UHGV virus genome: UHGV-0110177
Direction: 5' to 3' (one strand)
DNA from: a virus
DNA: 26,194 nucleotides
In this document: in pieces, positions 1,358 through 13,648 of the stretch
Position numbering within the stretch: the stretch's first letter is position 1
How the letters are laid out: each line of letters opens with the position of its first letter
Translations under genes and position numbers: made by a program
The notes under the pieces: model-generated
The model's database searches: none
What the model was told of the DNA's origin: nothing
The model's input: the letters and a program-made list of their open reading frames with translations, nothing else

Positions 1358-1572
1358 TAAGCATCCTGAACTAACTGATTAATCTTCGGGTAGTTGTACC
1401 AAAGCAGACCTTTAGAGTTGTCAGTCTGTCCAAGCGCAGTAAGGCGCTTGAAGTGAACACCTTCAACCCATAGTTTCTGGCGATAATTTTTAATCTGTCC
1501 TTCAGTAAGCCCTGTTCTTTCGGTAAGTCTGGACTCAACAACCCACTCTTCGTTAAAAATTACCTGTGACAT
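1357..1572 (-). CDS. xis: Excisionase-like small DNA-binding protein (71 aa)
   Basis: Small basic protein immediately upstream of and overlapping int; SD GAGGTG 4-5 nt before ATG. Confidence 0.7.
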   Translation of the reverse strand: MSQVIFNEEWVVESRLTERTGLTEGQIKNYRQKLWVEGVHFKRLTALGQTDNSKGLLWYNYPKINQLVQDA

Positions 1573-1636
1573 GGTTCACCTCAGGTAACCGGCGCCAGTA
1601 TAGATGCGCCGGTGTTGTGACATTGATAATTCGTTA

Positions 1637-1876
1637 TCAGGCAATCTGCCCTGGCAGTGCGCGCAGTCGGCGCATACCTGTCATTGCGGTGGCTACATAG
1701 CTCTTGTGTCGGTTAACAACTTCTACCGTCACCTTCACGCCATCGACCGCCACGGTATAAGTGGTCTTTGTTTTCTGTCGGCCAAACTCCCCGTAAAGCT
1801 CAACATGTTTTGCCAGTGCTGCATCGCACGCCCGGCGCGCCAGCGGAGATTGCGTGCTGCGGTTAATTAGTCGCAT
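1637..1876 (-). CDS. Hypothetical phage protein (79 aa from ATG at 1876; GTG at 1882 possible)
   Basis: ORF co-oriented with early-left operon; SD GAGGTG before ATG. Confidence 0.5.
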   Translation of the reverse strand: MRLINRSTQSPLARRACDAALAKHVELYGEFGRQKTKTTYTVAVDGVKVTVEVVNRHKSYVATAMTGMRRLRALPGQIA

Positions 1877-1883
1877 ATTCACC

Positions 1884-2156
1884 TCACTTAATCAGGCCAA
1901 GCGTGTAATTAAGTTCATGGAGGCATTCTTTGTCGTACTCAAAGAAGTAGTCCCATTGCTCTTGATTGCGGTGCTCACGAACCATCGCCCAGCGCCAGCC
2001 ATCGCCATCTAAAACGCGGCGAACCTTGCGTTTAACAACGGTATCAACATCGTAAATTACACCGTAATTAGCCCCGAACCCGTTACGCAAAACGTCAAGT
2101 TCAACAGTGATAACCCGGTATAATTTCGGAAGCTTTTTCAGTTCTTCAATACGCAT
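1884..2156 (-). CDS. Hypothetical phage protein (90 aa)
   Basis: ORF in operon; SD GGGGGTGA before ATG at 2156; overlaps 3' end of upstream gene. Confidence 0.55.
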   Translation of the reverse strand: MRIEELKKLPKLYRVITVELDVLRNGFGANYGVIYDVDTVVKRKVRRVLDGDGWRWAMVREHRNQEQWDYFFEYDKECLHELNYTLGLIK

Positions 2157-2766
2157 GGTCACCCCCGTCGATCCGTCTGAATTCGATTACCCACACCCAG
2201 GGGTTAGCATCCCAATTTTCTTGCCCATAGATTGACTGCCAGAGGTAGGCGAAGACATCAGTTGCGTCTGGTTGTGGATTAACACAGCCGCATGGCTCAG
2301 GTTCCCCGCAATTCAGACAGCCACCGTCAATAATGCCTTCTGCTCGCGCATCCTCTTCGCTGATAGCGTTCAACCGCTCAACCCGCACGTCTGTAATTTC
2401 CAGAAGAATACGACTAGCCCAGCGCGGCATGTGAATTGATGGACGCCATCTTCCTTCTTCTGGCCAGTCTGTAGGGGGCGTAGCCCGGTAAGCCATATCG
2501 TGGCTATCCTGGTCGATGTTGTAGCGCGCCCACGTCTCACGCACCCAGATGCGATCGCCGACGGCGCCGAACGGACAATGGATTGCGATATCTTCAATTT
2601 TCGGCAACAACAGTCCGTTAAGAGGTCTGCTTAACCACTTACCGGATAAACTTCCGCTTAATGTTGCCTCTGGCTGCGGCTTGATGATTCGCCGCGTCTG
2701 CGTCTTCCGGCCGTCGAGAATGGCGCGCACCATCTCACCATTAAAAATCATTCCGCGCTCAGTCAT
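2146..2766 (-). CDS. Hypothetical phage protein with C-terminal Cys cluster (CLNCGEPEPCGC), 206 aa from ATG 2766
   Basis: Long ORF; chosen start gives ATGACTGA overlap with the stop of the upstream gene; longer start at 2826 would overlap that gene by 68 nt. Confidence 0.6.
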   Translation of the reverse strand: MTERGMIFNGEMVRAILDGRKTQTRRIIKPQPEATLSGSLSGKWLSRPLNGLLLPKIEDIAIHCPFGAVGDRIWVRETWARYNIDQDSHDMAYRATPPTDWPEEGRWRPSIHMPRWASRILLEITDVRVERLNAISEEDARAEGIIDGGCLNCGEPEPCGCVNPQPDATDVFAYLWQSIYGQENWDANPWVWVIEFRRIDGGDHAY

Positions 2767-3109
2767 TCCAGGCCTCCAGCTCGTTCTGAATCTCTTCGTC
2801 GATATCGTCATTGGTCGCATCTTCATTCAGGAAGTCGCGCGCTTCTTTGAGATATTTTCCCCGGCGCAAGCGATACCAGAGAGAGAGAGAGAACTCATAG
2901 CTCCAGCAGTTCGGCGCGCCGTCATAGTCAAATTTGGCGTTGTTCTCAGCCATGCTCTCAACCATGTTGTAAGCAGTGTTGAGCGCCGCTTCGCGGATAT
3001 ACCCGCGCAGATCACGCTTGCGCCAGTACGGGTTTACTTTCGAATCGCAGAGTGGTTTAAATTCGACTTCCCAGCGGCGAATGCAGCGTGCATTTAATGA
3101 TTTGCTCAT
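2759..3109 (-). CDS. Hypothetical phage protein (116 aa)
   Basis: ORF in early-left operon directly downstream of recT. Confidence 0.55.
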   Translation of the reverse strand: MSKSLNARCIRRWEVEFKPLCDSKVNPYWRKRDLRGYIREAALNTAYNMVESMAENNAKFDYDGAPNCWSYEFSLSLWYRLRRGKYLKEARDFLNEDATNDDIDEEIQNELEAWND

Positions 3110-3143
3110 GTCATTACCGGGAGGGCGAACCCTCCCGCCTCCC

Positions 3144-4145
3144 TTAGCCCACGTATTCCGGTTTCATGTCGTCCAGGGTGATGCGGAACTGGTCATACAG
3201 TTCGTCGCCTAAGTGCCGTTTCGCTGTGTGAAGAGTGCCTTCAGCTTTAGCAAACAGTTCCGCCGCTTCTGGTTCTCCGGGATTCGACAGGGAGTTGATA
3301 GCGGCCTCAACTTTATTTTTGGCGTCAACAAGGTAGTAGCGCTTCACCGCTTTATTTTTCAGCTCAGTGAACAGCGCAGTTCCCAGCAACGCTTTCTGCG
3401 ACTCAATATCAGCGCGGATAGCTTTGGCCTGGTCAACAGAGCTTGCTGTGTCAATGCGGTCGCGTAGGTCGTCGGCAACGGCATCAACGTTAGTTGCTGA
3501 TTCCTGCGCGGTAGCGAGGATGCCTGTTTCGCTGGTGATCTCTTCAACAGTCATTCGCGGGGTTGGATTTATTTCGCGCTCAACGCGTTCCTCCAACTCA
3601 TCAGGGGTGTAGACCCCCAAAATCGCCCATGGTGTGTAGGCACGAGCCCAGTATTTCACTTGCAAGTAGCCAATTTGCTGCTTTGGGTTACTTTTCCACA
3701 GGGGCGAGTTTTTGATTGTTACTTCCGAAACGCAGAGCCATTCATTCCATGTAATGTCTTTTTCTCCGCTAATAATTGCGCCAACACGGCACTCCATCAG
3801 ATCCTTTTCGCCACGATATTCATAATGGAATCGCCCCCGTATTGCGCCGGTGGCAGTCAGTACCGCGCTAACTAACTGAGCTTCATATCCTAGAGTGCCA
3901 TTTATAACGTGTGTTTTCTGACCGACTACGTAGGGGTCCATACCCCATCGCGCGGCTTGCATGACAATGGCGAGGCAGTCTGATGGCTTACCCTGAAGAT
4001 GTTTGGGCACAGTAGAAATACCCTGGGACATAACATCAGCAATCTTCATCATGCGATCCATGACATCGCCATTCAGCAGTAACGAGCCATTATTCATTGT
4101 GCTGGGTGCCTGCTGATCAATTACCGCTATGTTTCTATTTTCCAT
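3144..4145 (-). CDS. recT: RecT/Bet(Red-beta)-family single-strand annealing protein (333 aa)
   Basis: Recalled similarity to lambda Bet/RecT core (PLWKSNPKQ...VKYWARAY compared with GPWQSHPKR...CARLA); start is 13 nt after recE stop with SD AAGGGGGAA; classic exonuclease-annealase pair. Confidence 0.65.
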   Translation of the reverse strand: MENRNIAVIDQQAPSTMNNGSLLLNGDVMDRMMKIADVMSQGISTVPKHLQGKPSDCLAIVMQAARWGMDPYVVGQKTHVINGTLGYEAQLVSAVLTATGAIRGRFHYEYRGEKDLMECRVGAIISGEKDITWNEWLCVSEVTIKNSPLWKSNPKQQIGYLQVKYWARAYTPWAILGVYTPDELEERVEREINPTPRMTVEEITSETGILATAQESATNVDAVADDLRDRIDTASSVDQAKAIRADIESQKALLGTALFTELKNKAVKRYYLVDAKNKVEAAINSLSNPGEPEAAELFAKAEGTLHTAKRHLGDELYDQFRITLDDMKPEYVG

Positions 4146-4157
4146 GACTGTTCCCCC

Positions 4158-7049
4158 TTATGCCTGTACGCGCAGCGCTTCAAGGCGGCGCACATCAAAA
4201 TCGTTGAGTTCTTCGGCGTAATCTTCGGTAATCGGCGCTGGCCATTCGCCAGTGTCGAATCCGTTCGCGATGGCGCGCATTGCTTTGCGGTATTCCAGCA
4301 TGCCGAGTTCAAGCAGTTCTTCGGATGCCTCGATGATGGCGATCCAGTGGTAGTTCTCGTCTTTGTTGACGAATATCCAGAAAAACTGGTCCAGCGCTGC
4401 GGTTTCGCAGTACATGGCAGCGCTCAGGTGATAATCGCGATCGATGATTTCCCGGTGCAACTTCGCGCGCAGACCTTCCTGCTTGATATTCCACATGCTG
4501 ATAGTCTTCAGGTCAGCGCCGATGCGCAGGCCGCCCATGTCAATTTCAAGGTCAGGGCGCACGCGGATTTCCAGCCCGGTTTCCTCATCAATACCGAAAT
4601 AGCTCACCTCTACGGCGCGGTTCGGATGCGTCAGCAGCTTCCCGGCGGTCGGGTGATTCAGCAGCGCTTTCTGGATGGCCTGCGCGGTGCTCAACTGCTG
4701 GCGGGTAACCAGAATTTTATCGCCGGGGTTTTCGCGCCATGCGTCAAGCAGCTCGTCGGCAAACACTGTTTCAGGTTTGACGGATTTCACTGCCTGAATC
4801 AGATCCGCTTTGGTGCCGGATACTTTCAACGGCTGTGGCTTCTGTGCTTCCTGTGCAACGAGATCAGGATTGATGATCGCCAGTTGCTCAAGCAGCGCGT
4901 CACGGCTTCCGCTGGTTTTAACCGGCGCGGGCAGGGTGGCGTTGTATTCTTTGATGCAGGCCTTCATTGCCGCTGCTGTATGCTTAGTCCCGTTTTCGAT
5001 GCGCTGGAACTCTTCAGGCAATAGCTCATATGACGCATACGCTTCGTCGACGGATGCCCCAAGCGGTAATGGCGCGGGCAGGGTGGCGTTGTACTCTTCC
5101 AGCAACGCTTTGATATCGTCTGCGGTGAGTAATGCCGGCAGGCTGGCGTTGTGTTCGTCGATAACCGCGCGGATCGTCGCTGTCGTCGTGAGCGCGCCTT
5201 CCGAGATTTCCGGTTCGATGCTGAACTCTTTTTCCAGTTGTTCAGGCTGTAACGCCAGCGCGTGCACCAGGTTCCCCATATCCAGAACTTTGGTGCGTTC
5301 TTTCTGGATGGTTTTGGATACGTGGCGCGCTTCGAAATACATCAGACTTACACGTGCATCTTTGACCATTGTCGAACTGATGCCATTCGCCGCGTGATAT
5401 ACCTCGTTCGGTACGCCTTCATAACGCCCCGGCTCGAAGTATTCCGGCCACACTGACGCTGGCTCTGGTTCTTCCTGTTGCATTTCCGGCACGTTTTGTT
5501 GCGTTTCTGGCTCAGAATGGCTTGCAGAATCGTTGTTCTGGCTCACTTCCGGCTGATGGTGGTCTACATCGGCTTGCTCGCCGGTATCTGCCTCTTCACC
5601 ATTCCCCAAATCACTTTCGCTTGCGAGCAGCGCATCACCAGTCTGTTCTTCATTACCGTCAGTTTCTTGAACCTGCACATCGGCGGCGTCCTCATTTTCC
5701 GTTTTTTCTCCCTCATTTGAGGCGGCGTTGTAGTCTTCATGAACCCACTTCGGATCGTTAGGGTCACTGATACCTTCAACGTAATCACCGCGCGCAGCTG
5801 CGAGTTGTCGGTTTACTTCTTCAACGGATGGTTCATCCTGTCTTACTGGCGTTGGCATAGGCATGGACGAACGTCCGCAGGCAATATCAACGACAAGCGG
5901 ATCGGGATTGGCGTGGTCAGTTTCTGTCAGCACCTTATTCAGGTACTCGCGGTGGCGAAACGGGGATTTGTATAGTTCATCTGGTGTGGTTTTTACTGTT
6001 GCAACGATGCATGCGCGGGAATAGTCCAGACCACCAGGCATTGACACGAACAGTTCGCGCGTTGCCAGCCACTCAGGGTCGTCAACTGCGTTCATGATTG
6101 AGTTAGCCTTTAGTTCGATCTGCAATGGCAGAGAATAAATATCAAATTCGTACTGACGCGCCAGCAGGCCTAAGGCTATTTCAAATTCAAGACCGAGAGT
6201 GGTCTGGGGCATCTTGCGATCGGATGCAATTCCGCCGCCAGCGTTCGCGCCGCTTTCAGTACGCTGAATAGCTGATACACGATTACCTTTGCACCACTCT
6301 TTAACGAGCAACCCGCGATCAATATGAGGGGTATCGAACCATGTTTTCAGAAACTGGATAACGCTTGCCAGCTCAGGGATTTTGCCATCAGCAGGAAACA
6401 CGTTCTTAACGGCATTTACCGCTTTATGGATATCGTGTTCAATGGCCTTTTTGAATGGTTCAACATTCTCAGCCGCAAGTAAAATGTTCTGGACATATGA
6501 GTTATCAGTGTCCATTTCCAGAGCGAGAATTGCTTTTTTCTGCTCTGCATCGACATGATAGAGATACTCGCCATCGCCAATATGTTGGGCCAGTATGCGA
6601 TGACGGAAGGGCATCGTTGCCACAACGGTTAACTGAGGGTGTTCAGGTAGATCGCCATTGTCTTCAGTTGACGCCTGATCGTGCTGGATAATTTCGCCAG
6701 TTTCGGTATCAACACCATCAACGATACGCTGACGGGCGACGGCAACGGCCTCAGAAGAGGGCAGCGTAACACCGGGGATCTGTACCCAGGTCATGTTGTC
6801 TTTGCCGAGCTGGTAGAAATCGCAGAACGTTAAGCTGAGTTCGCCTTCCGGCGGCAGTTCGTTAACGACAGGGAAATTAGTGGCGACAGCTTTAAAATAA
6901 TCTTTCAGCTTTGCGCCGGATTTAATCAGGAGATAATCCAGTGTGGCATTTGCCGATTCAAAATCATCACTGCACCAGAGAACCGCATCTTTTTGTCCTG
7001 ATGATTTTTTTGCTTTGCGGACTAAAAATACAGGATTAGTTCCACTCAT
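4158..7049 (-). CDS. recE: Exodeoxyribonuclease VIII (RecE-like), 963 aa
   Basis: N-terminus from ATG at 7049 (MSGTNPVFLVRKAKKSSG...VLWCSDDFES...DYLLIKSG...KAVATNFPVVN) matches E. coli RecE N-terminus from memory; conserved LNKVLTETDHANPDP...DIACGRSS block; SD GAGGAT upstream; the ORF-track start at 7259 is a 70-codon over-extension. Confidence 0.85.
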   Translation of the reverse strand: MSGTNPVFLVRKAKKSSGQKDAVLWCSDDFESANATLDYLLIKSGAKLKDYFKAVATNFPVVNELPPEGELSLTFCDFYQLGKDNMTWVQIPGVTLPSSEAVAVARQRIVDGVDTETGEIIQHDQASTEDNGDLPEHPQLTVVATMPFRHRILAQHIGDGEYLYHVDAEQKKAILALEMDTDNSYVQNILLAAENVEPFKKAIEHDIHKAVNAVKNVFPADGKIPELASVIQFLKTWFDTPHIDRGLLVKEWCKGNRVSAIQRTESGANAGGGIASDRKMPQTTLGLEFEIALGLLARQYEFDIYSLPLQIELKANSIMNAVDDPEWLATRELFVSMPGGLDYSRACIVATVKTTPDELYKSPFRHREYLNKVLTETDHANPDPLVVDIACGRSSMPMPTPVRQDEPSVEEVNRQLAAARGDYVEGISDPNDPKWVHEDYNAASNEGEKTENEDAADVQVQETDGNEEQTGDALLASESDLGNGEEADTGEQADVDHHQPEVSQNNDSASHSEPETQQNVPEMQQEEPEPASVWPEYFEPGRYEGVPNEVYHAANGISSTMVKDARVSLMYFEARHVSKTIQKERTKVLDMGNLVHALALQPEQLEKEFSIEPEISEGALTTTATIRAVIDEHNASLPALLTADDIKALLEEYNATLPAPLPLGASVDEAYASYELLPEEFQRIENGTKHTAAAMKACIKEYNATLPAPVKTSGSRDALLEQLAIINPDLVAQEAQKPQPLKVSGTKADLIQAVKSVKPETVFADELLDAWRENPGDKILVTRQQLSTAQAIQKALLNHPTAGKLLTHPNRAVEVSYFGIDEETGLEIRVRPDLEIDMGGLRIGADLKTISMWNIKQEGLRAKLHREIIDRDYHLSAAMYCETAALDQFFWIFVNKDENYHWIAIIEASEELLELGMLEYRKAMRAIANGFDTGEWPAPITEDYAEELNDFDVRRLEALRVQA

Positions 7050-7176
7050 TGTTTTATCCTCACTTCGTGTAGAATGGAGGCGCCTTAATGGCACCTCGGT
7101 TTTACCAAGTAGAATGTCCGGTTCGCTTTGGTCGGTTAGACCGGACAGGGCAAGCCCACCTCGTGTGGGCTTTTGC

Positions 7177-7464
7177 TTAATGAACGGTGCTGAAAACTTT
7201 TTCTGAGTAATCGAGTTTGTAGCTGCGGTAGTTGCCAAACCCGGCGTTATCGCCATCACTTACTTTCACGGACAACATTGAAATTGCCTCTACAGCACAA
7301 AGAGGACAGTCGAACTTGCCGAATACATAGCCACCGTCAAGAATGACCGTGACCGCGCCCGTTTCGGCTGAATGAATAACGCCTGATACTTTCTTCTCGC
7401 AGTTGAATACAGCCAATTCTTTATTCACTGCTTTCAGGTTCATTTCGATTTTTACGATTTCCAT
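7177..7464 (-). CDS. Hypothetical phage protein (95 aa)
   Basis: ORF in early-left operon. Confidence 0.5.
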   Translation of the reverse strand: MEIVKIEMNLKAVNKELAVFNCEKKVSGVIHSAETGAVTVILDGGYVFGKFDCPLCAVEAISMLSVKVSDGDNAGFGNYRSYKLDYSEKVFSTVH

Positions 7465-7504
7465 AAAACTTCTCTGGTTATTAAATTCAGGGTGTAAAAA
7501 GCCG

Positions 7505-7530
7505 CGCCAAATTAATGGCGAGTTTTTTAT
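7505..7530 (+). terminator. Hairpin (CGCCA-aattaa-TGGCG) followed by TTTTTTATTT; intrinsic-terminator-like, oriented for plus strand
   Basis: Read directly; lies inside the minus-strand early operon, so may act as attenuator or bidirectional element. Confidence 0.35.
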
Positions 7531-7551
7531 TTCATATTTCAGAACTGCTGG

Positions 7552-7710
7552 TTAACTTTCGTGCGCCATCTGATCGTATTCAGCGCATTGCTTTGAGCAG
7601 TATTCTTTTTCTTTGTTGGCAAGCCGGTTGCCATTGCGATAGAAAAGGATGCTCTTTACTTCTTTGCCTTCTTCAACGGGTTTGCGGCAGTAACCGCATT
7701 CTTTCTGCAT
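7552..7710 (-). CDS. Small zinc-ribbon-like protein, 52 aa (MQKECGYCRKPVEEGKEVKSILFYRNGNRLANKEKEYCSKQCAEYDQMAHES)
   Basis: Not in ORF track (<60 aa); strong SD GAGGAGGGG 5 nt upstream of ATG; CxxC...CxxxC motif; sits 9 nt downstream of preceding gene stop. Confidence 0.5.
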   Translation of the reverse strand: MQKECGYCRKPVEEGKEVKSILFYRNGNRLANKEKEYCSKQCAEYDQMAHES

Positions 7711-7719
7711 TACCCCTCC

Positions 7720-7905
7720 TCAGATGCTTGCTGGTAGCTCTCCGTTGCGAATGATTCCCTCAACAGGCCAGCACTCACCATTAACCTTTTGCTCGACAGC
7801 TGCGGCCTGGCATTCCTGCTGGTTGTCATATACACCGAGAATCACATCCTGAAAGTCACCGTTGGTCATTGCGACCGTTAATACCAGTGCGAACAAAGAG
7901 TTCAT
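7720..7905 (-). CDS. Small protein with hydrophobic N-terminus (61 aa, MNSLFALVLTVAMTNG...)
   Basis: ATG at 7905 with SD AAGGAA 9 nt upstream; signal-peptide-like N-terminus. Confidence 0.5.
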   Translation of the reverse strand: MNSLFALVLTVAMTNGDFQDVILGVYDNQQECQAAAVEQKVNGECWPVEGIIRNGELPASI

Positions 7906-8029
7906 TTGCTGGTTTCCTTTTTGGTGATACAACCTTTCATGACACACCAAAAAAATCGAAATGGCGCTGTAAAAGCATTCCCTCGAACGGCCTGGATGCG
8001 TGCTGGCTGACGTGCGAAATCAATCATTT

Positions 8030-8254
8030 TCATCCTCTGCGATGACTGTTTTTAATTTCATTCCAGTACTGAAAAGTGCACGGAATGTTTGCATCCAGGA
8101 CTGCCTGCGTGGCCGCAATGATGTTCGCATGCCAGGTTACGCAGACCGTTGCTCGCATCTGCATATAACGCAGTGACGGATCTGCCTTACTCATCAACAT
8201 CCCAGCGCGTGCTGCATCCTGAGAATTGTCAAAGCTAAAAATAACCTCACTCAT
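8030..8254 (-). CDS. Hypothetical protein, first gene of leftward early operon (74 aa)
   Basis: SD AGAGGGA upstream of ATG 8254; ~150 nt leader from candidate pL. Confidence 0.55.
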   Translation of the reverse strand: MSEVIFSFDNSQDAARAGMLMSKADPSLRYMQMRATVCVTWHANIIAATQAVLDANIPCTFQYWNEIKNSHRRG

Positions 8255-8405
8255 GATTTATCCCTCTGCTTGCCGTTGTCGCCCGGCTGGCGGAACGTTT
8301 GATACCTGCTGCGCGTTAACTCATCCACCTCATCACCATCTTCATACGCCTGGTGCGGCTACATTCGTGGGCGTCCTGCCTGGGTGGTCGTGTTGCTGTG
8401 AATTT

Positions 8406-8472
8406 ATATTAAGCCTTAGACTTAACTAGTGTCAAGCTCAGGACTGAATTCATAGTTAAGTTTTAGGCTTAT
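8406..8472. promoter_or_regulatory. OL-like operator/promoter unit: 17-bp palindromes TTAAGCCTTAGACTTAA (8409-8425) and TTAAGTTTTAGGCTTAT (8456-8472); leftward promoter -35 TTGACA (8435..8430) and -10 TAATAT (8411..8406)
   Basis: Palindromes share the half-site TAAG/CTTA with the two sites between repressor and cro; good sigma70 hexamers on minus strand with 18-bp spacer. Confidence 0.6.
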
Positions 8473-8538
8473 TTTTTTGACGAATGTATGGGAGTAGAGG
8501 ATGCTTATGCTCACAAAAACGCCAAAGAGGATGGGTAT

Positions 8539-8742
8539 ATGTCAAACGATGATGAGTTTTTCGCGGAGATGCATCCGCAGATAGCGCAGGTGATCGGTAT
8601 GGCTGTGATGCAGATTCTGGTTGAAGGGCGTGAGATCACAAAGGCAGAAATAATCGAGACGATTCAGGTTCTGTGGCAGGAGGAGCAGGTTGATCTTGCT
8701 GTTGAGTTAGCGCTGGATGTACTAATGCTGCCAAAAGAATAG
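8539..8742 (+). CDS. Small acidic hypothetical protein (67 aa) transcribed rightward from the OL-like region
   Basis: ATG 8539 with SD GAGGA; reading frame continues from the track ORF 8488..8742. Confidence 0.5.
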   Translation: MSNDDEFFAEMHPQIAQVIGMAVMQILVEGREITKAEIIETIQVLWQEEQVDLAVELALDVLMLPKE

Positions 8743-8745
8743 GGC

Positions 8746-8780
8746 AAAAAAAAAGCCCGGAACGTGTCGTAATCCGGGCT
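8746..8780 (-). terminator. Rho-independent terminator for minus-strand transcription (8-bp stem AGCCCGGA/TCCGGGCT, then U9 on the minus strand)
   Basis: Perfect stem plus A9 run on plus strand read directly. Confidence 0.7.
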
Positions 8781-8888
8781 GTAAGTCGGATATATGGTGC
8801 TGTTATTTCTTGTTCATGCACCATAACAGAGCTCGTCTGACCGGAGTGTGTTGTCGCGCATGTTTCAGGGAAAAGACCCCTGCAAAAT

Positions 8889-8966
8889 TCACCAGGCCAG
8901 CATAACCAGTGAAATCGCGGCGACCATAACAACAGTTACCAAGCATACTATCAGATACTCTCTCAT
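8889..8966 (-). CDS. Candidate 25-aa hydrophobic peptide (MREYLIVCLVTVVMVAAISLVMLAW)
   Basis: Only coherent small ORF in a ~300-bp unit bounded by two minus-strand terminators; weak SD; speculative. Confidence 0.25.
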   Translation of the reverse strand: MREYLIVCLVTVVMVAAISLVMLAW

Positions 8967-9093
8967 TATTTTCCAACTGATTATTTGCATCATATATCAA
9001 CAAGGATAGCCTGATTAAGTAGATGTAGCGTGCATGGCTACGAAACAGGCAAGGGTGCAAAGAGGGATGCTGCGGAGTTCGTGAGGAAAGGGC

Positions 9094-9120
9094 AATAAAA
9101 ACCCGGCGTGGTGTCCGGGT
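9094..9120 (-). terminator. Rho-independent terminator ending the repressor operon (stem ACCCGG/CCGGGT, then UUUUUAUU on the minus strand)
   Basis: Hairpin and T-run located 8 nt after the stop of the 118-aa gene. Confidence 0.7.
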
Positions 9121-9127
9121 CGAAGAG

Positions 9128-9484
9128 TTATTTTAGAACAAGTCCATTAAGAGCATCCAGAATTTTTGAAACGTAATTCCCAAAAATATAAGCACAGAAA
9201 GCAAAAATGATGCTCACTACAGCAGCCGATGCTTTTATGGTTGTTTTGGCGGAGCCAATGCCTGTCTCTATTGCCGCTAACCTTGAATCGATTGACTTTA
9301 TGTCAGATTTTACTTCAGCGATATCGCGCTTAATGTATTCAACATCTGACTCAAGCTTTGCAACTCTTGCCTGCATGTCACCACCCCCACCAGAACCATC
9401 ACCGTCTTTGAAGTTAGTATGGGGGGTTACAGCTCTATTTTCAACTGGCGCTTTCGCGGGGTTAAAACTATAAACTTGCCCCAT
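9128..9484 (-). CDS. Tail-anchored membrane protein: Gly-rich linker, coiled coil, C-terminal TM helix (118 aa; alternative ATG at 9376 gives 82 aa)
   Basis: ORF co-transcribed downstream of repressor; ~42% GC versus ~52% in core genes; C-terminal hydrophobic segment AAVVSIIFAFCAYIFGNYV. Confidence 0.6.
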   Translation of the reverse strand: MGQVYSFNPAKAPVENRAVTPHTNFKDGDGSGGGGDMQARVAKLESDVEYIKRDIAEVKSDIKSIDSRLAAIETGIGSAKTTIKASAAVVSIIFAFCAYIFGNYVSKILDALNGLVLK

Positions 9485-9920
9485 TTACGGCATCTCCGGT
9501 GTGATGAATTACATGAAAATAACAGCTATGGCTGTCGATTATTTCGCTTGTCTTATTACCATGTTCATCATTTTTGAAGTTTGTAATTTTGGCTTCATAA
9601 AGCCCCTCTTTACTGAGGTCTACATCGCTGACAAACATAGATGAAATGTAACAAACGTGATCGCTTTCAATGAAGTTGATTGATGATGTTTCAAAATAAC
9701 CATCATCATCATGCATAATGATTACTGTATGATTATTAAATAGAATATCTATTTCAGTGCGTACAAGATGATTTACAGGGACAGAAAAGCCTATAGTGAT
9801 AATCACTGTCTGCAACTCATTTGTAGGAGAGGGGGATAGCATCGGCATGGGCTGATACCACTTAAGCCCCTTTATTCCATCTTTCTGTAATGTGGGATAA
9901 GCAAACAGAATTTTATTCAC
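9468..9920 (-). CDS. AT-rich hypothetical protein (150 aa, GTG start)
   Basis: GTG at 9920 with SD AAGGAAG 8 nt upstream; ~37% GC; sits between repressor and membrane protein. Confidence 0.55.
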   Translation of the reverse strand: MNKILFAYPTLQKDGIKGLKWYQPMPMLSPSPTNELQTVIITIGFSVPVNHLVRTEIDILFNNHTVIIMHDDDGYFETSSINFIESDHVCYISSMFVSDVDLSKEGLYEAKITNFKNDEHGNKTSEIIDSHSCYFHVIHHTGDAVNGASL

Positions 9921-9977
9921 TTGATTGCTTCCTTAACACTTAAAATGTGCCACTAGAGCATGATTTTCAAAAAACGG

Positions 9978-10364
9978 CTATTCTCCGTCACCCTTAATCC
10001 GCCGCCCCATGTACTTGGCGTACAGCTCGTCGAGTTCCTTAAGGCGCAGAGACACGATCCGCAACATGTTCTGCTGCTCTTCTTCCGGCAACTGGCGATA
10101 GAGCTCGAGTAGGCGCTGTTCGTCAGGCTTAAGACCGTCCTTCTCTCCAACATCCTCACCAAGTAGCCAGGGAACTGATACGCCAGCAGCATCTGCAACC
10201 GCTAATGCAGAACTTTTGCTAATAACACCTTTTTTGAACCAGCCGTTTACGGATTGCGGGGTAATCCCCGCAACCCTTGCCATATCAGATTTTGTCATCC
10301 CTCGTTGCGTCAGTTCTGTCAAACGCTCGATGAGAATCGGGTTAAGTATTTTTTTCTCAGCCAT
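9978..10364 (-). CDS. Prophage repressor, HTH (XRE-type), 128 aa, no recognisable LexA-like S24 cleavage domain
   Basis: HTH motif MTKSDMARVAGITPQSVNGWFKKG; divergent from cro-like gene across the operator region; short C-terminal helical domain only. Confidence 0.8.
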   Translation of the reverse strand: MAEKKILNPILIERLTELTQRGMTKSDMARVAGITPQSVNGWFKKGVISKSSALAVADAAGVSVPWLLGEDVGEKDGLKPDEQRLLELYRQLPEEEQQNMLRIVSLRLKELDELYAKYMGRRIKGDGE

Positions 10365-10373
10365 ATCAGAAGA

Positions 10374-10441
10374 ATAAGCCTTTTGCTTATAAATTAAAAT
10401 TCGCTCAGGACTTGATCTTTTGTTAAGTCTGAGGCTTAATT
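10374..10441. promoter_or_regulatory. OR-like operator/promoter unit: palindromes ATAAGCCTTTTGCTTAT (10374-10390) and TTAAGTCTGAGGCTTAA (10423-10439); rightward promoter -35 TTGATC (10412-10417), -10 TTAATT (10436-10441)
   Basis: Inverted repeats read directly; placed between divergent repressor and cro-like genes; cro SD GGAGA follows. Confidence 0.65.
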
Positions 10442-10467
10442 TATTTGTGAATCTAGTGGAGATACTC

Positions 10468-10701
10468 ATGAACGGATTAGAAAAGGCCATTCAGAAAGCT
10501 GGCACTGCCAGCAACTTAGCCGCAAAGCTAGGCATTAAACCGATGTCGGTTAGTCGCTGGAAAACACGATACAAGGGCGTCGTGCCAGCCGATCGTGTTT
10601 TACCAATTTTCAACGCAACTGGTGTTACCCCCCATGAATTGCGCCCTGATCTGTATCCGAACCCCACGGACGGATTACCAGCGCAGGATGCGAGGGCGTA
10701 A
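10468..10701 (+). CDS. Cro/YdaS-like HTH protein (77 aa)
   Basis: HTH (ASNLAAKLGIKPMSVSRWK); first gene rightward of operators; SD GGAGA. Confidence 0.75.
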   Translation: MNGLEKAIQKAGTASNLAAKLGIKPMSVSRWKTRYKGVVPADRVLPIFNATGVTPHELRPDLYPNPTDGLPAQDARA

Positions 10702-10703
10702 CC

Positions 10704-11246
10704 GTGCATTCAATTTCATTTCAACAAAATACCGGGTTTCCTCCAGCCACGATGATAAATCGCAATCAGCCTGATCCGGCGGATAAGCATGACCAGATTC
10801 GGGCTGCCGTTCGTGCGTGGTCGGCATCGCTGGACAACCAGGACGTAGTCGCCGGGATCATCGTTGAGGAATGGGAACGGCAGGGCGGCGCCGGGCTGGA
10901 TTTTCCTGACGACCTGAGCCGTAAGCGGCAGAAGCTTTTCCGCTGGCTGGACAGCGATACCGGATATGCGCGCGAAAACATCCGTCAGCTGACTCCGGCG
11001 ATCCTGGCTGTTTTGCCGCTTGAGTTTCGTGGTCGCCTTATCGGACAGGATTGTTTCATGACGCGTTATGCAGCGATGGAGAAGGAAATCAGCGAGGCGA
11101 AACAGGCCGTAATGCTGAATGCGCCAAAGCATCAACTGGTGAAAGAGGTCAGGGAAGGGATTGAGCATCTGCTGAATATGTTGCCGGGTGATGCTGTCGT
11201 TCAGGTTCTGAGTGGTATCGCGGCCATAGCGCCGGGTGTCATGTGA
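10704..11246 (+). CDS. YdaT-family protein (CII-position regulator), 180 aa from GTG
   Basis: Recalled similarity to E. coli YdaT core (EEWERQGGAGL...LTPAILAVLPLEFRGRL compared with EEYLRQGGGEL...LIPAILAILPRELRHRL); SD GAGGG before GTG. Confidence 0.65.
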   Translation: MHSISFQQNTGFPPATMINRNQPDPADKHDQIRAAVRAWSASLDNQDVVAGIIVEEWERQGGAGLDFPDDLSRKRQKLFRWLDSDTGYARENIRQLTPAILAVLPLEFRGRLIGQDCFMTRYAAMEKEISEAKQAVMLNAPKHQLVKEVREGIEHLLNMLPGDAVVQVLSGIAAIAPGVM

Positions 11247-11510: not shown

Positions 11511-11629
11511 AAGGGTGAAGACCGCTGTGCTCCAACACAGACGGCCTTCGGGTGCAATTCGTTGCGTACTCATTGCGAGATCATTATGACAAAGAGTTTT
11601 TCAAAACACCAGGCAAGGGAGGCATAGCT

Positions 11630-12628
11630 ATGTCGAATGTCGCCTACGCCGATTTTGCGGCGGTACGCGCCGCCAGGAGCAACCGGATGGAAAACCAGAA
11701 GACCGGATTCATCCCGTTGTACCGGAGTGTACTCAAGCAGCCATGGTCAGAAGATGTTTACCTGCGTACGTTGTGGGATAACCTGCTTTTGGGCGCTGCC
11801 AGCCAGCCATACACAGCGAGCTTTAAAGGTCGCCAATGGCCGCTACAAACCGGACAACTGGTGACCACGGCGGCCGATCTGGGCCTGAAACTACGTGACA
11901 GAAAAGGCAACCCAACAAGCCGTGATGCTGTTGAGAGAATGCTGACGTTTTTTGTGCGTGAAGGGATGATTTCCATTGAGGGAGAACGGCAAAGAGGGCG
12001 TGTGATCACGATCTCAAATTATGTCGAATATGCTCAAAAAATGGACAATTTGCCCGCACAAACTTCCGCACATACCAGCGCACATATGCCCGCACATGGC
12101 GAAGCCAGTAACGGCGCGGATTTGGCGGTAGGTAGCGCACATGAAAGCGCACATACATCCGCACAAACAAGCGCACATCATGAACAATATATATTAAATA
12201 CTAACGTATTTAATGTACGTCAGAGAATTTCCAAAATTGTTCCTGATGCAGCAGTCCAGACTCCGAAAGGTGACAAGTGGGGGACATCTGACGATCTCCG
12301 CTGCGCAGAGTGGATGCTGGCGCTGCGTGACATCACCAAACCATCCCTGAAAAAACCGAATATGGCTGGCTGGGCGAATGACATACGCCTGATGCGCCAG
12401 CTGGACGGACGCACCCACAAAGAGATTTGTGAGTTGTTCAGATGGGCCTGCAAAGACTCGTTCTGGTACAAAAATATTCTCTCCCCCGCAAAGCTCCGCG
12501 CCAAGTGGGACACGTTAACCCTTCACCGTGAAGACACTACCCGCAAGCCACGCGCAGATGTCAGCGCAAGCAAATCCGAAACCGGCCCGCACTGGAACAG
12601 TGCTGAAGCATGGGAGAAATTTTTATGA
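11630..12628 (+). CDS. Replication initiator (lambda O-like replisome organiser), 332 aa
   Basis: Position immediately upstream of P-like gene; embedded iterons plus AT-rich tract inside gene as in lambda O; SD AGGGAGG 8 nt before ATG 11630. Confidence 0.7.
   Translation: MSNVAYADFAAVRAARSNRMENQKTGFIPLYRSVLKQPWSEDVYLRTLWDNLLLGAASQPYTASFKGRQWPLQTGQLVTTAADLGLKLRDRKGNPTSRDAVERMLTFFVREGMISIEGERQRGRVITISNYVEYAQKMDNLPAQTSAHTSAHMPAHGEASNGADLAVGSAHESAHTSAQTSAHHEQYILNTNVFNVRQRISKIVPDAAVQTPKGDKWGTSDDLRCAEWMLALRDITKPSLKKPNMAGWANDIRLMRQLDGRTHKEICELFRWACKDSFWYKNILSPAKLRAKWDTLTLHREDTTRKPRADVSASKSETGPHWNSAEAWEKFL
12053..12225. repeat. Candidate replication origin: 8 copies of (C/G)CGCACA(A/T) in two clusters of four (12053-12098, 12134-12179), then AT-rich tract 12183-12225
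   Basis: Repeats at 11-13 bp spacing read directly; encode the AH-x-SAH protein repeats; architecture matches ori-lambda inside O. Confidence 0.6.
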
Positions 12629-13320
12629 CCCCGGATCTTTATCGTGCAATTCAGAATCGCGACAGCGAAGTGCTATCGCGCATGGCTGGAGATTCTTACG
12701 ACGGCCGTAAGGTTGTTAACAGTGACGCTGAAAAGCTGGTGGATATGCTTTTTGAAAATCTCATGCAGGTATTTCCGGCATCCACTCAGACGAACCTACG
12801 TACTGGCGATGATATTCGCGTTGCAAAGCAGCAATGGATCGCCGCCTTTGCTGAGTCAGGCATCACCTCCCGTGAGCAACTTTCCGCCGGAATGCAGAAA
12901 GCCCGATCCAGTCAGTCACCGTTCTGGCCGTCGCCCGGGCAGTTTATTTCGTGGTGCCGTGAAGGGAGTGGCGCGCTGGGAGTCAGTGTGGACGACATCA
13001 TGAGCGAATACTGGCGCTGGCGGAAACTTGTTTTTCGCTATCCGACGAGTGAGCAATTCCCCTGGAGGGATAAAAACCCGCTGTATTACCACGTCTGCCT
13101 GGAGTTGCGCCGTCGTGGAACGGAGGGGCAACTCAGCGAAAAGGAACTTATCCGGGCTGCTGGCGACATCCTGCATGACTGGGAAAAACGCACTCTTGCT
13201 GGAAAGCCCATACCACCCGTTCGTCGCGCTATAGCCGCACCTTTGCAGGATCGTGGGCCAACACCAGCCGAGTTGTTAATGGCGAAATACAAGCAGCGTA
13301 AAGACGCCGGGCTGATTTAA
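12625..13320 (+). CDS. Replication protein P-like helicase loader (231 aa)
   Basis: Recalled similarity to lambda P (FPAS...QWIAAFAESGITSREQLSAGMQKAR...PFWPSPGQFISWCRE); ATGA overlap with O stop. Confidence 0.85.
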   Translation: MTPDLYRAIQNRDSEVLSRMAGDSYDGRKVVNSDAEKLVDMLFENLMQVFPASTQTNLRTGDDIRVAKQQWIAAFAESGITSREQLSAGMQKARSSQSPFWPSPGQFISWCREGSGALGVSVDDIMSEYWRWRKLVFRYPTSEQFPWRDKNPLYYHVCLELRRRGTEGQLSEKELIRAAGDILHDWEKRTLAGKPIPPVRRAIAAPLQDRGPTPAELLMAKYKQRKDAGLI

Positions 13321-13336
13321 CGGGAGGAGAATGACG

Positions 13337-13648
13337 ATGGCAAGCAAATCACTGTGGGCAATTGTTGATTTCCTTCGGGAAAACCAGACCATCACGCCGA
13401 GACAGGTTCAGAACCTGCTGGGATGCGACGGCAAGAAATCTCACAACCTGCTGCTTCACCTGACGCGCAAAGCGGTAGTTATCCGTACAGGCGAGCCGCA
13501 TCACCCGGTTTATTCGCTGTTGCCCGGCGGAGAACTGAATATCAAGCGCTTCAAATCGACCGTGAGAAAAAACATGGTCACATCCGTTTGCCGCAACAGC
13601 GCGGCGATGAAGAGAGTTCTGGCATTTTACGGGAGAGCGTCAGCATGA
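13337..13648 (+). CDS. Hypothetical protein (103 aa)
   Basis: SD GGAGGAG 7 nt before ATG 13337. Confidence 0.5.
   Translation: MASKSLWAIVDFLRENQTITPRQVQNLLGCDGKKSHNLLLHLTRKAVVIRTGEPHHPVYSLLPGGELNIKRFKSTVRKNMVTSVCRNSAAMKRVLAFYGRASA

What the first reader, a model, noticed from the sequence alone, without database searches (positions are those of the whole stretch)
12053..12225. Iteron array and AT-rich tract embedded in the O-like gene: candidate replication origin
Eight copies of (C/G)CGCACA(A/T) are arranged as two clusters of four with 11-13 bp spacing, followed by a ~40-bp AT-rich tract (AACAATATATATTAAATACTAACGTATTTAATGTACG). This mirrors ori-lambda inside the O gene, and the repeats are also translated as AH-x-SAH peptide repeats in the initiator linker.
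Basis: partly seen in the sequence, partly recalled or inferred. Interest (0 to 1): 0.5.

Follow-up and report, generated by a model that had tools for sequence, protein, structure and literature searches.

The report
Replication origin inside phage O gene
This is almost certainly the prophage's replication origin, written into the flexible middle of its own initiator gene, which is an ordinary kind of feature; but its centre holds a short DNA box that recurs in the origins of very different mobile elements across many bacterial groups and that nothing I found explains.

Summary
Eight SCGCACAW cores lie on the + strand in two runs of four (12054-12097, 12135-12178), at exactly 12 bp (four codons), followed by an AT-rich tract (12181-12222, GC 0.20).

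They sit in the predicted disordered linker of a PF04492 O-like initiator (11630-12628). The next gene is lambda-P-like.

In 76 distinct relatives the layout is always n+n (4+4 or 3+3), with a fixed 45-bp junction. Codon choice shows selection on the DNA rather than the peptide. Core sequence tracks one residue at the start of the predicted recognition helix: D with CGCACA, H with CG(C/A)GCA. The AT tract carries a palindrome kept by compensatory changes that alter the protein.

Best reading: an O-dependent origin that works like ori-lambda. However, the repeats are direct and 12-bp phased, not 19-bp dyads. The closest annotated relative is the two-piece rep_origin in phage HK620 gene O. This is therefore a new member of a known kind.

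Unexplained extra: the spacer box AANCCAGTAAYGGCGCGGNTT (12101-12121) also lies between other iterons. It occurs next to at least ten unrelated initiator families in phages, PICI-type satellites and Tn4371-type ICEs from several phyla.

The parts
11630..12628 (+). O-like replication initiator gene (332 aa). ATG at 11630 follows AGGGAGG. The TGA stop at 12626-12628 overlaps the next gene's ATG.
   Evidence: PF04492 Phage_rep_O, E 9.4e-19. 97% identical to a Citrobacter koseri 'replication protein'. RBS and stop read.
11720..12037 (+). Coding for the N-terminal winged-helix domain (model residues 32-137). The predicted recognition helix is residues 99-111. The class-specific residue D100 (D99 of the native protein) is the codon GAT at 11924-11926.
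12038..12271 (+). Coding for the predicted disordered linker (model residues 138-215). It contains the whole array and the AT tract.
   Evidence: pLDDT below 30 across residues 138-215.
12054..12097 (+). Iteron cluster 1: CCGCACAA, CCGCACAT, GCGCACAT, CCGCACAT at 12054, 12066, 12078 and 12090.
   Evidence: The same 4-unit cluster occurs in CUS-3, Mulock, JEP4 and Stx2a phages.
12098..12134 (+). Spacer between the clusters. It holds the conserved box AAGCCAGTAACGGCGCGGATT at 12101-12121 (core CCAGTAACGGCGCGG at 12104-12118).
   Evidence: The junction is 15 codons in all 75 correctly parsed relatives. Codon use in the box: GGC 27/28, GCG 31/32, preceding third base C 34/34. The same box occurs in other origins.
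12135..12178 (+). Iteron cluster 2: GCGCACAT, GCGCACAT, CCGCACAA, GCGCACAT at 12135, 12147, 12159 and 12171.
12181..12222 (.). AT-rich tract, the presumed unwinding element. It starts directly after the last iteron.
   Evidence: GC 0.20 at 12180-12219. Among the 0.25% lowest 40-bp windows of the window sequence.
12190..12217 (.). Palindrome inside the AT tract: core ATTAAATAC | TAAC | GTATTTAAT (12193-12201 / 12206-12214).
   Evidence: DNA fold z = -3.9. Compensatory variants in L070, L210 and L061. The 9 core pairs are paired in all 10 distinct sequences; two of them show double changes.
12218..12229 (+). CGTCAGAGAATT, identical to the start of the palindrome on the right side of ori-lambda. 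Here it is read in a different frame (V-R-Q-R-I).
   Evidence: Window sequence compared with lambda L006 660-674 and with Mulock-type relatives.
12272..12625 (+). Coding for the C-terminal domain of O, which is lambda-O-like and presumably binds P.
   Evidence: 56% identity to lambda O residues 174-283, E 5e-43. pLDDT 81-91.
12625..13320 (+). Lambda-P-like helicase-loader gene. Its ATG overlaps the O stop codon (ATGA).
   Evidence: PF06992 Phage_lambda_P, E 1.5e-52. Overlap read.

Best explanation
The segment 12054-12222 is the vegetative replication origin of a lambdoid prophage, embedded in the linker-coding part of its own initiator gene.

Proposed mechanism:
1. After derepression, O is made. 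Its N-terminal winged-helix domain binds the eight direct CGCACA cores, one domain per 12-bp unit. The start of the recognition helix (S-R-D-A-V-E-R) reads the core.
2. The two equal clusters, held 45 bp apart around the conserved spacer box, fold into an O-DNA complex.
3. That complex, helped by negative supercoiling, opens the adjacent AT-rich tract. The palindrome there may extrude or form a hairpin.
4. The lambda-like C-terminal domain of O recruits the P-DnaB complex to the opened DNA.

Shown here: the anatomy, the gene context, DNA-level selection on the cores, box and palindrome, and covariation of core sequence with a recognition-helix residue.

Inferred: physical binding by O, stoichiometry, the folding of the two clusters, unwinding at the AT tract, and P/DnaB recruitment (the last by homology with lambda).
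For: 1. Context. A PF04492 O gene is followed by a PF06992 P gene with an ATGA overlap. It lies downstream of repressor, cro-like and YdaT-like genes in a prophage with integrase and RecE/RecT-type genes.

2. Position. The array and AT tract lie wholly in the predicted disordered linker, between a winged-helix N-domain and a C-domain 56% identical to lambda O. That is where ori-lambda, the P22 ori and the HK620 ori are annotated.

3. Conservation of layout. Of 76 distinct relatives, 58 are 4+4 and 17 are 3+3; the one remaining record, L003, was misparsed by the script and is 3+3 on inspection. The junction is 15 codons in all 75 correctly parsed. L031 lost one unit from each cluster by two separate 12-bp deletions within a 4+4 clade.

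4. Selection on DNA rather than peptide.
- Motif Ala is GCA in 235/236 cases (class A) or GCG in 215/216 (class B), against about 20% elsewhere in the same genes.
- Motif His is CAT in 445/446 cases.
- The residue before the motif is P, S, A, T, G, C or V, yet its third base is C in 238/239 cases.
- In class B, Ala and Glu alternate (GCG/GAG).
- In the window alone, GCA is 8/8 in the motif against 7/31 elsewhere, p = 1e-4.

5. Specificity.
- D100 goes with CGCACA and H100 with CG(C/A)GCA in all 76 genes.
- Two later DNA tests agree (L210, L211).
- All 120 database proteins are consistent.
- More distant subfamilies keep the layout with other cores and other residues at positions 99-100: CCGATRA with P-Q, GTCGAA with A-K.

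6. Modularity. The N-domain plus iterons recombine independently of the right arm and C-domain. Right arms are lambda-like, P22-like or palindromic, and partners are P or a DnaB-type helicase.

7. AT tract. The palindrome is kept by compensatory changes that alter the peptide: LNTNVFN, LDTNVSN, FNTNVLN, SNNKLLD.
Against: - No experiment. Binding, unwinding and origin firing are all inferred.
- The cores have no dyad symmetry, and the 12-bp spacing differs from the characterised O-iteron complexes of lambda. The binding mode cannot simply be copied from lambda.
- Covariation is weakened by relatedness and linkage. Class B is close to one clade in a neighbour-joining tree, so there were perhaps only 1-2 switches. 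The iterons also lie inside the gene whose product is proposed to bind them.
- CCGCACA arrays with the same spacer box occur next to a primase-helicase with no detectable O-like domain. The core alone therefore does not prove O binding.
- The prophage may be defective elsewhere. The window shows only 26 kb.
Confidence: 0.8

Rival explanations
1. The repeats matter only as protein. On this view they form a His/Ala-rich flexible linker (for example for metal binding or for spacing the two domains), and the DNA periodicity is a by-product of peptide repeats created by slippage.
For: The units are in frame, and the peptide A-H-x-x is visibly repeated in more than 100 homologues. The linker is predicted disordered, as low-complexity linkers often are.
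Against: Codon choice is fixed far beyond what the peptide needs: GCA 235/236 or GCG 215/216; CAT 445/446. Amino acids change (A/E; P/S/A/T/G) while the bases CG-GCA stay fixed. Within the same class-A genes, Ala is GCA in the iterons but GCG (31/32) in the spacer box. Other subfamilies encode quite different peptides in the same layout. The spacer box also occurs in inverted orientation in an O gene and in non-coding DNA.
Confidence: 0.04
2. The array is a real cis-acting site, but the cores are bound by something other than O. Candidates are a host protein or another phage or satellite protein, so that the site serves regulation, exclusion or hijacking rather than O-dependent initiation.
For: CCGCACA repeats with the same spacer box lie in non-coding DNA downstream of a Toprim/DUF5906 primase-helicase that has no detectable similarity to the O N-domain. 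The spacer box is shared by origins with many different initiators.
Against: The core sequence changes with the O N-domain subfamily, and with a residue at the start of its recognition helix. A host factor would predict one core across subfamilies. There are no DnaA-box or IHF consensus sites in or near the array. The primase-helicase loci were found by searching for this very core, so that resemblance is partly an effect of how they were found.
Confidence: 0.08
3. It is origin-like by descent but no longer the working origin, either because the prophage is cryptic or because it replicates from elsewhere.
For: Only 26 kb is visible, and nothing tests activity. Many enterobacterial prophages are defective.
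Against: The O, P, repressor, integrase and RecE/RecT-type reading frames are intact. All eight cores match the family consensus. Near-identical modules occur in complete viral contigs and in isolated phages.
Confidence: 0.08

Closest known systems
Two-piece rep_origin annotated in gene O of coliphage HK620 (GenBank AF335538)
   Same: Lies inside a PF04492-type O gene, between the N-domain and the C-domain. It has two equal clusters of short direct repeats (3+3, TTACCAGCA at an 11-12 bp period) around a spacer, followed by an AT-rich tract with a palindrome (TCTCTAATAC|TGAC|GTATTAGAGA).
   Different: O proteins are only 22% identical. The iteron core differs. The clusters are 66 bp apart rather than 69 or 81. 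The HK620 spacer keeps only the first half of the box (AAGCCAGCAAT). The partner is a DnaB-type helicase, not lambda P.
ori-lambda (and its 6-iteron form in Stx phages 933W and P27)
   Same: The origin lies in the middle of gene O. O-binding repeats sit upstream of a roughly 40-bp AT-rich tract. The O C-terminal domain is 56% identical and a P gene lies downstream (PMC7466680). The 12 bases after the AT tract (CGTCAGAGAATT) are identical.
   Different: Lambda iterons are 18-19-bp inverted repeats, each bound by an O dimer, contiguous and 20-24 bp apart (PMC7466680, PMC6022878). Here the cores are 8-bp direct repeats at 12 bp, in two clusters around a GC-rich spacer. The N-domains are related only at Pfam-profile level. 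The palindrome is inside the AT tract, not beside it.
P22 ori in gene 18 (rep_origin annotated in BK000583)
   Same: Origin inside the O-like gene. Relatives of the window's O (CUS-3, JEP4, Stx2a phages) carry the P22-type right arm (AT-rich, then CCCCCC..GGGGG) and a DnaB-type helicase gene.
   Different: P22 iterons are lambda-like inverted repeats (TTACCGAATCGGTAAA type). The window has a different right arm and a P-type partner.
PICI / SaPI satellite origins (for example EcCICFT073; Fillol-Salom et al. 2018, PMC6092414)
   Same: Two sets of iterons flank a central region. An E. coli Nissle satellite, with the capsid and head-decoration genes also reported for EcCICFT073, carries the identical box CCAGTAATGGCGCGGCTTTCAG between GTCTACC iterons, 84 bp downstream of its primase gene. 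[quoted passage not shown]
   Different: The satellite origin is non-coding and lies downstream of a primase-helicase initiator. Its iterons occur in both orientations. The paper describes the central region as AT-rich. I did not verify that the Nissle island is identical to EcCICFT073.
Iteron plasmid origins (RepE, pi, RepA, TrfA type)
   Same: Direct repeats bound by a winged-helix initiator, next to an AT-rich unwinding element.
   Different: Plasmid iterons are 17-22 bp long and about two helical turns apart. Their Rep proteins have two WH domains, and DnaA boxes are usual. Here the repeats are at 12 bp, there is one WH domain, and there is no DnaA box.

Membership tests
Lambdoid origin embedded in the O gene (ori-lambda type) | Lies inside a PF04492 initiator gene, in the segment between the DNA-binding N-domain and the C-domain. 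| tested here: met
   Pfam hit. The AlphaFold2 model puts 12054-12222 within the disordered linker, residues 138-215.
Lambdoid origin embedded in the O gene (ori-lambda type) | Several repeated initiator-binding sites (iterons). | tested here: inconclusive
   Eight repeats are present and under DNA-level selection, and they co-vary with a recognition-helix residue. Binding itself was not testable.
Lambdoid origin embedded in the O gene (ori-lambda type) | Each iteron is a roughly 19-bp inverted repeat, a dimer site. | tested here: not met
   The cores are direct, 8 bp, 12-bp phased and without dyad symmetry. Compare lambda and P22.
Lambdoid origin embedded in the O gene (ori-lambda type) | AT-rich tract immediately downstream of the last iteron. 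| tested here: met
   GC 0.20 at 12180-12219, starting 3 bp after the last core.
Lambdoid origin embedded in the O gene (ori-lambda type) | Cognate helicase-loader (P) or helicase gene directly downstream, and an O C-domain of the matching type. | tested here: met
   PF06992 P gene at 12625-13320. C-domain 56% identical to lambda O.
Lambdoid origin embedded in the O gene (ori-lambda type) | Supports O/P-dependent replication. | not testable with these tools
   Needs a mini-replicon or induction experiment.
Bipartite direct-repeat O-gene origin (HK620 type) | Two equal clusters of short direct repeats separated by a spacer, inside gene O, followed by an AT-rich tract. | tested here: met
   The window is 4+4. 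All 76 relatives are n+n once the L003 misparse is corrected.
Bipartite direct-repeat O-gene origin (HK620 type) | Palindrome within the AT-rich tract. | tested here: met
   12193-12214 in the window. HK620 has TCTCTAATAC|TGAC|GTATTAGAGA. Compensatory variants.
PICI/SaPI-type origin | Two sets of iterons flanking a central region. | tested here: met
   The same central box occurs in an E. coli PICI-like island.
PICI/SaPI-type origin | Non-coding, immediately 3' of a pri-rep initiator gene; the central region is the AT-rich melting site. | tested here: not met
   Here the origin is inside the initiator gene, the spacer is GC-rich (0.60-0.65), and the AT tract lies to one side.
Iteron plasmid origin (Rep_3 / RepE type) | Iterons of 17-22 bp about 22 bp apart, a Rep protein with two WH domains, and DnaA boxes. 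| tested here: not met
   12-bp period. Single WH domain. No DnaA box near the array.

The most novel reading that the evidence does not exclude
The 21-bp box in the spacer (12101-12121, AANCCAGTAAYGGCGCGGNTT) may be a previously undescribed, near-universal core element of iteron origins in integrative mobile elements.

Where it sits: between family-specific iterons, in either orientation, in coding or non-coding DNA.

Initiator families seen next to it:
- O (PF04492)
- D5_N/DUF5906
- Toprim-DUF927
- Toprim-AAA_25
- Prim-Pol-AAA_25
- AAA_25 alone
- VapE-like
- DUF3987
- Toprim-DUF5906
- RepA of Tn4371-type ICEs

These occur in Proteobacteria, Firmicutes, Verrucomicrobia and other phyla.

Proposed role: the site of a universally conserved host replication factor, or a DNA structure needed where the two initiator arrays meet.
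Probability: 0.35. Interest if true: 0.85.

Novelty: new member of a known kind. Interest (0 to 1): 0.5.

Why it matters
For this window, the result gives a confident origin annotation and a testable rule for initiator-origin specificity. One residue (D or H at the start of the recognition helix) goes with one base change in the core. That could be used to design orthogonal O/ori pairs, or to predict replication incompatibility and cross-activation among lambdoid prophages, including Stx2a phages that carry the same module.

It is also a clean example of a coding sequence whose codons, and even amino acids, are dictated by an overlapping DNA element.

The wider point is the spacer box. If one 15-21-bp sequence really is shared by the origins of phages, satellites and ICEs that use unrelated initiators in distant phyla, it points to a common step of initiation that has not been described. 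It would also give a simple sequence tag for finding origins of integrative elements.

Tried and rejected
- **Nucleotide searches with the O gene.** Megablast found nothing in the phage collection and only partial 78% hits in E. coli genomes. Relatives had to be found through protein searches.
- **Solved structures.** No relative by sequence.
- **Host-factor sites.** There is no DnaA box (TTWTNCACA) or IHF consensus within kilobases of the array. By eye, the box does not fit sigma-54, Fis or dif consensus sequences. An ops-like GGCGGTAG at 12123-12130 is not conserved in relatives.
- **RNA.** No Rfam family at the array or the box, in the window or in five other box loci.
- **Shared DNA-binding domain.** I tested whether the primase-helicase next to CCGCACA arrays has an O-like DNA-binding domain. 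Profile comparison gave probability 0.1%, so this was rejected.
- **Phage P4.** Its ori and crr do not contain the box.
- **Outer inverted repeat** 12176-12188 / 12236-12248. It is partly forced by the invariant H-H-E-Q codons, is only partly kept in relatives, and shows no compensatory change. It is not claimed as part of the origin.
- **Positions 82 and 118 of the N-domain.** They separated the two iteron classes in the first set but failed in L211 and L210. Only position 100 holds.
- **First repeat-enrichment measure.** A 7-mer count was too permissive because controls were also high. It was replaced by 8- and 9-mers.
- **Literature.** Searches for the core, the box sequence, iterons in P22-like or Stx phages, PICI origins and the Tn4371 oriV found no description of these iterons or of the box. 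Older subscription papers, such as the HK620 and HK022 genome papers, could not be read.
Full report
**1. The observation**

Reading 11700-12600 and scanning for SCGCACAW shows eight copies on the + strand. They start at 12054, 12066, 12078, 12090 and at 12135, 12147, 12159, 12171. There are only two other matches in the 26-kb window.

The period is exactly 12 bp, not 11-13. The two clusters start 81 bp apart. Runs of four identical 6-mers at 12-bp spacing were never reached in 200 Markov simulations, where the maximum was 2.

Directly after the last copy, GC falls to 0.20 (12180-12219). This is one of six such places in the window. The tract contains a palindrome with a 9-bp perfect core, ATTAAATAC|TAAC|GTATTTAAT, at 12193-12214.

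**2. Context**

The array lies in a 332-aa gene, 11630-12628. The ATG follows AGGGAGG. The gene matches PF04492 Phage_rep_O.

The next gene (12625-13320, ATGA overlap) matches PF06992 lambda P.

Upstream are an HTH repressor, a YdaS-like cro and a YdaT-like gene. Further left are an integrase, RecT and an exonuclease VIII-like gene. The window is therefore a lambdoid prophage. The best protein match is from Citrobacter koseri, at 97%.

An AlphaFold2 model built on 66 homologues gives three parts:
- A folded N-domain, residues 32-137. It has helix 82-88, helix 99-111 and a beta wing at 115-129.
- A disordered linker, residues 138-215.
- A folded C-domain.

The model is numbered from the codon at 11627, one codon before the ATG. 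Model D100 is therefore D99 of the native protein.

**3. Relatives**

The same 4+4 array with identical spacing occurs in phages CUS-3, JEP4, Klebsiella phage Mulock and a Stx2a phage. A Yersinia phage has 3+3.

From 80 viral contigs plus these phages I parsed 76 distinct O genes. Of these, 58 are 4+4 and 17 are 3+3. The script misparsed L003 as 3+4, but it is 3+3 on inspection. The last unit of cluster 1 and the first of cluster 2 are 15 codons apart in the other 75.

L031 is 3+3 inside a clade of 4+4 genes. It reached that state by two separate 12-bp deletions, one in each cluster. Equal copy number therefore appears to be kept.

**4. DNA-level versus protein-level selection**

There are two core classes. 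Class A is SCGCACAW, as in the window. Class B is SCG(C/A)GCAT. Codon counts come:
- Motif alanine is GCA in 235/236 cases in class A and GCG in 215/216 in class B. Either codon makes up about 20% of alanine codons elsewhere in the same genes.
- Motif histidine is CAT in 445/446 cases.
- The preceding residue can be P, S, A, T, G, C or V, but its third base is C in 238/239 cases.
- In class B, alanine and glutamate alternate through GCG/GAG.
- In the window alone, GCA is 8/8 in the motif against 7/31 elsewhere (p = 1e-4).

Only the core is uniform. The other four bases of each unit vary between units. That pattern argues for selection on a binding site rather than neutral repeat homogenisation.

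**5. Link to the O protein**

Three N-domain columns separated the classes in the first set. After two further loci were fetched as tests (L210 and L211, both class B by DNA), only one column held. This is residue 100 of the model, the second residue of the predicted recognition helix (S-R-[D/H]-A-V-E-R). It is D with CGCACA and H with CG(C/A)GCA.

No database protein with Glu-His units has D at this position. The apparent exceptions were E-H pairs outside the iterons.

Two more distant subfamilies keep the 3+3, 69-bp layout but have other cores and other residues at positions 99-100:
- Salmonella phage S.Inf 5-2 has CCGATRA with P-Q.
- Enterobacter phage ENT1 has GTCGAA with A-K.

A neighbour-joining tree suggests only one or two A/B switches. 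The covariation is therefore suggestive, not statistical proof.

**6. The right arm**

Relatives carry three kinds of right arm:
- The window type, an AT tract with an internal palindrome.
- A lambda type, nearly identical to lambda's AAAAGAT..TCGTCAGAGAATTCTGGCGAATCCTCTGAC and read in the same frame.
- A P22 type, AT-rich and then CCCCCC..GGGGG, matching the annotated P22 rep_origin neighbourhood.

Right arms go with the C-domain and partner gene (P or a DnaB-type helicase). Iterons go with the N-domain. This is the modular behaviour expected of an origin.

The window-type palindrome has compensatory variants:
- ATTAGATAC/GTATCTAAT in L070.
- ATTTAATAC/GTATTAAAT in L210.
- A different palindrome in L061.

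Each variant changes the peptide. All nine core pairs are paired in all 10 distinct sequences.

**7. Mechanism proposed**

O N-domains occupy the eight 12-bp units. Eight sites equals the eight half-sites of lambda's four dyad iterons, though that comparison is my inference. The two clusters assemble around the spacer, the AT tract opens, and the lambda-like C-domain brings in P-DnaB.

The direct orientation and 12-bp phase mean the geometry must differ from that of lambda. One possibility is that the two clusters fold back on each other, so that units from opposite clusters become two-fold related. This would explain why copy number stays equal. It is speculation.

**8. Comparison with what is known**

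The kind is known. Lambda and Stx-phage origins are described in PMC7466680. P22 and HK620 carry rep_origin annotations inside their O-like genes.

HK620's annotation is in two pieces. Its sequence shows 3+3 direct TTACCAGCA repeats around a spacer, followed by an AT tract with a palindrome. This is the same architecture in a sister subfamily whose protein is 22% identical.

I found no paper describing CGCACA-type iterons. I therefore file the feature as a new member of a known kind. It works like ori-lambda but fails lambda's dyad-iteron criterion.

**9. The unexplained box**

The middle of the spacer (12101-12121, AAGCCAGTAACGGCGCGGATT) is conserved across all four iteron classes. Its codon use is fixed: GGC 27/28, and GCG 31/32 in class A, whose iterons use GCA.

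*Viral contigs.* A pattern scan found the box not only in O genes but also between other short repeats. Examples of those repeats are GTCTACC, TTGTCCAAC, TGAACCAAC, GTGACAG, TTGACAC, CGCGCAYTT and CCGCACA. Many of these copies are in non-coding DNA. In one O subfamily the box is in inverted orientation.

About 9 chance matches are expected in the whole 596-Gb collection. Hosts include many Paenibacillus, Alicyclobacillus, Pelotomaculum, Akkermansia, Poribacteria, and alpha-, beta- and gamma-proteobacteria. Of 104 distinct loci, 42 have a 9-mer repeated three or more times within 130 bp. Only 3 of 301 control windows do.

*Neighbouring genes.* The adjacent gene is usually a replication initiator, of many unrelated families:
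- D5_N/DUF5906
- Toprim-DUF927
- Toprim-AAA_25
- Prim-Pol-PriCT-AAA_25
- AAA_25 alone
- VapE-like
- DUF3987
- RepA of Tn4371-type ICEs, where the box lies between repA and parA

The box occurs in both orientations relative to the initiator gene. That argues against an RNA role.

*Satellites.* An E. coli Nissle satellite has the gene content described for EcCICFT073. It carries the box between its iterons, 84 bp downstream of its primase gene. PMC6092414 shows that this region is the origin in EcCICFT073. That paper also states that the two-iteron-set organisation is unknown in other replicons.

*Other copies.* Some copies lie 8-10 nt after a tRNA 3' end and form one arm of a hairpin.

*What does not explain it.* There is no Rfam family and no paper containing the sequence. 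DnaA and IHF consensus scans find no site near the array, and by eye the box does not resemble either consensus. Phage P4 lacks the box. What recognises the box is unknown.

**10. Verdict**

As an origin the feature is ordinary. The D/H specificity rule and the palindrome are useful details. The spacer box is the part that deserves follow-up.

Noticed in passing
window 7087-7175 (+): Rfam match to isrB, an Hfq-binding sRNA (RF01386): 74.7 bits against a gathering score of 35. It overlaps the start of the exonuclease VIII-like gene on the other strand.
   Followed up: no
window 71-11246: Prophage backbone: integrase (71-1357, -), RecT-like (3144-4145, -), exonuclease VIII-like 1033-aa protein (4158-7259, -), HTH repressor (9978-10490, -), YdaS-like cro (10420-10701, +), YdaT-like protein (10704-11246, +). 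A Ren-like exclusion gene lies at 13331-13648.
   Followed up: partly
window 11953-11958: A single inverted copy of the iteron core (TGTGCG) lies inside the N-domain coding region, 102 bp upstream of the array. Klebsiella phage Mulock has one at the same distance (L002 1776) but CUS-3 does not. It is probably a consequence of the F-V-R-E codons.
   Followed up: partly
window 12123-12130: GGCGGTAG, the first eight bases of the ops (RfaH) element, lies in the spacer just before cluster 2. It is not conserved in relatives, so it is probably chance.
   Followed up: partly
window 12176-12188 and 12236-12248: A 13-nt inverted repeat (CATCATGAACAAT / ATTGTTCCTGATG) brackets the AT tract and joins the hairpin in the DNA fold (z = -3.9). 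It is only partly kept in relatives, with no compensatory changes.
   Followed up: partly
L211 1501-2634 (Serratia prophage O gene, P0115): An expanded array with four small clusters of class-B iterons separated by three copies of the spacer box (CCTAGTGCTGGCGCGGCTTGC type). This suggests the repeating module is iterons plus box.
   Followed up: partly
L433 4001-4163 (Citrobacter plasmid carrying a Tn4371-type ICE) and about 25 genome loci, e.g. L339-L341, L344, L345: A nearly identical 165-bp segment lies between repA (replication initiator protein A) and parA in many proteobacterial genera. It consists of TCGTGCTATCAGGAGTAC repeats, then the box, then CTCTAACTT repeats. AACGGCGCG pairs with CGCGCCGTT about 70 nt downstream. 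It is likely the ICE's oriV.
   Followed up: partly
L332, L370, L380, L381, L432 (genomes of Thermoleophilia, Sumerlaeota, Alicyclobacillus, Bacillota, and others): The box lies 8-10 nt after the 3' end of a tRNA gene. There it forms one arm of a terminator-like hairpin with CCGCGCC(R)TT. In L380 it is followed by TGCAAATCA repeats. These may be ends of integrated elements.
   Followed up: no
L197 5040-5320, L130, L118 (high-GC viral contigs): Non-coding arrays of (A/C)TGCCGCACA in direct and inverted orientation lie just downstream of a Toprim/DUF5906 primase-helicase gene. L197 and L130 have the box between clusters. L118 instead has a perfect IHF consensus (AATCAACAACTTA) in that position.
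   Followed up: partly
L221 / L404 (O genes with GTACCGAATCGGTAC iterons): A PF04492 O gene with lambda/P22-like dyad iterons carries the box in inverted orientation relative to the gene. It encodes P-A-P-L-L-D instead of S-N-G-A.
   Followed up: partly
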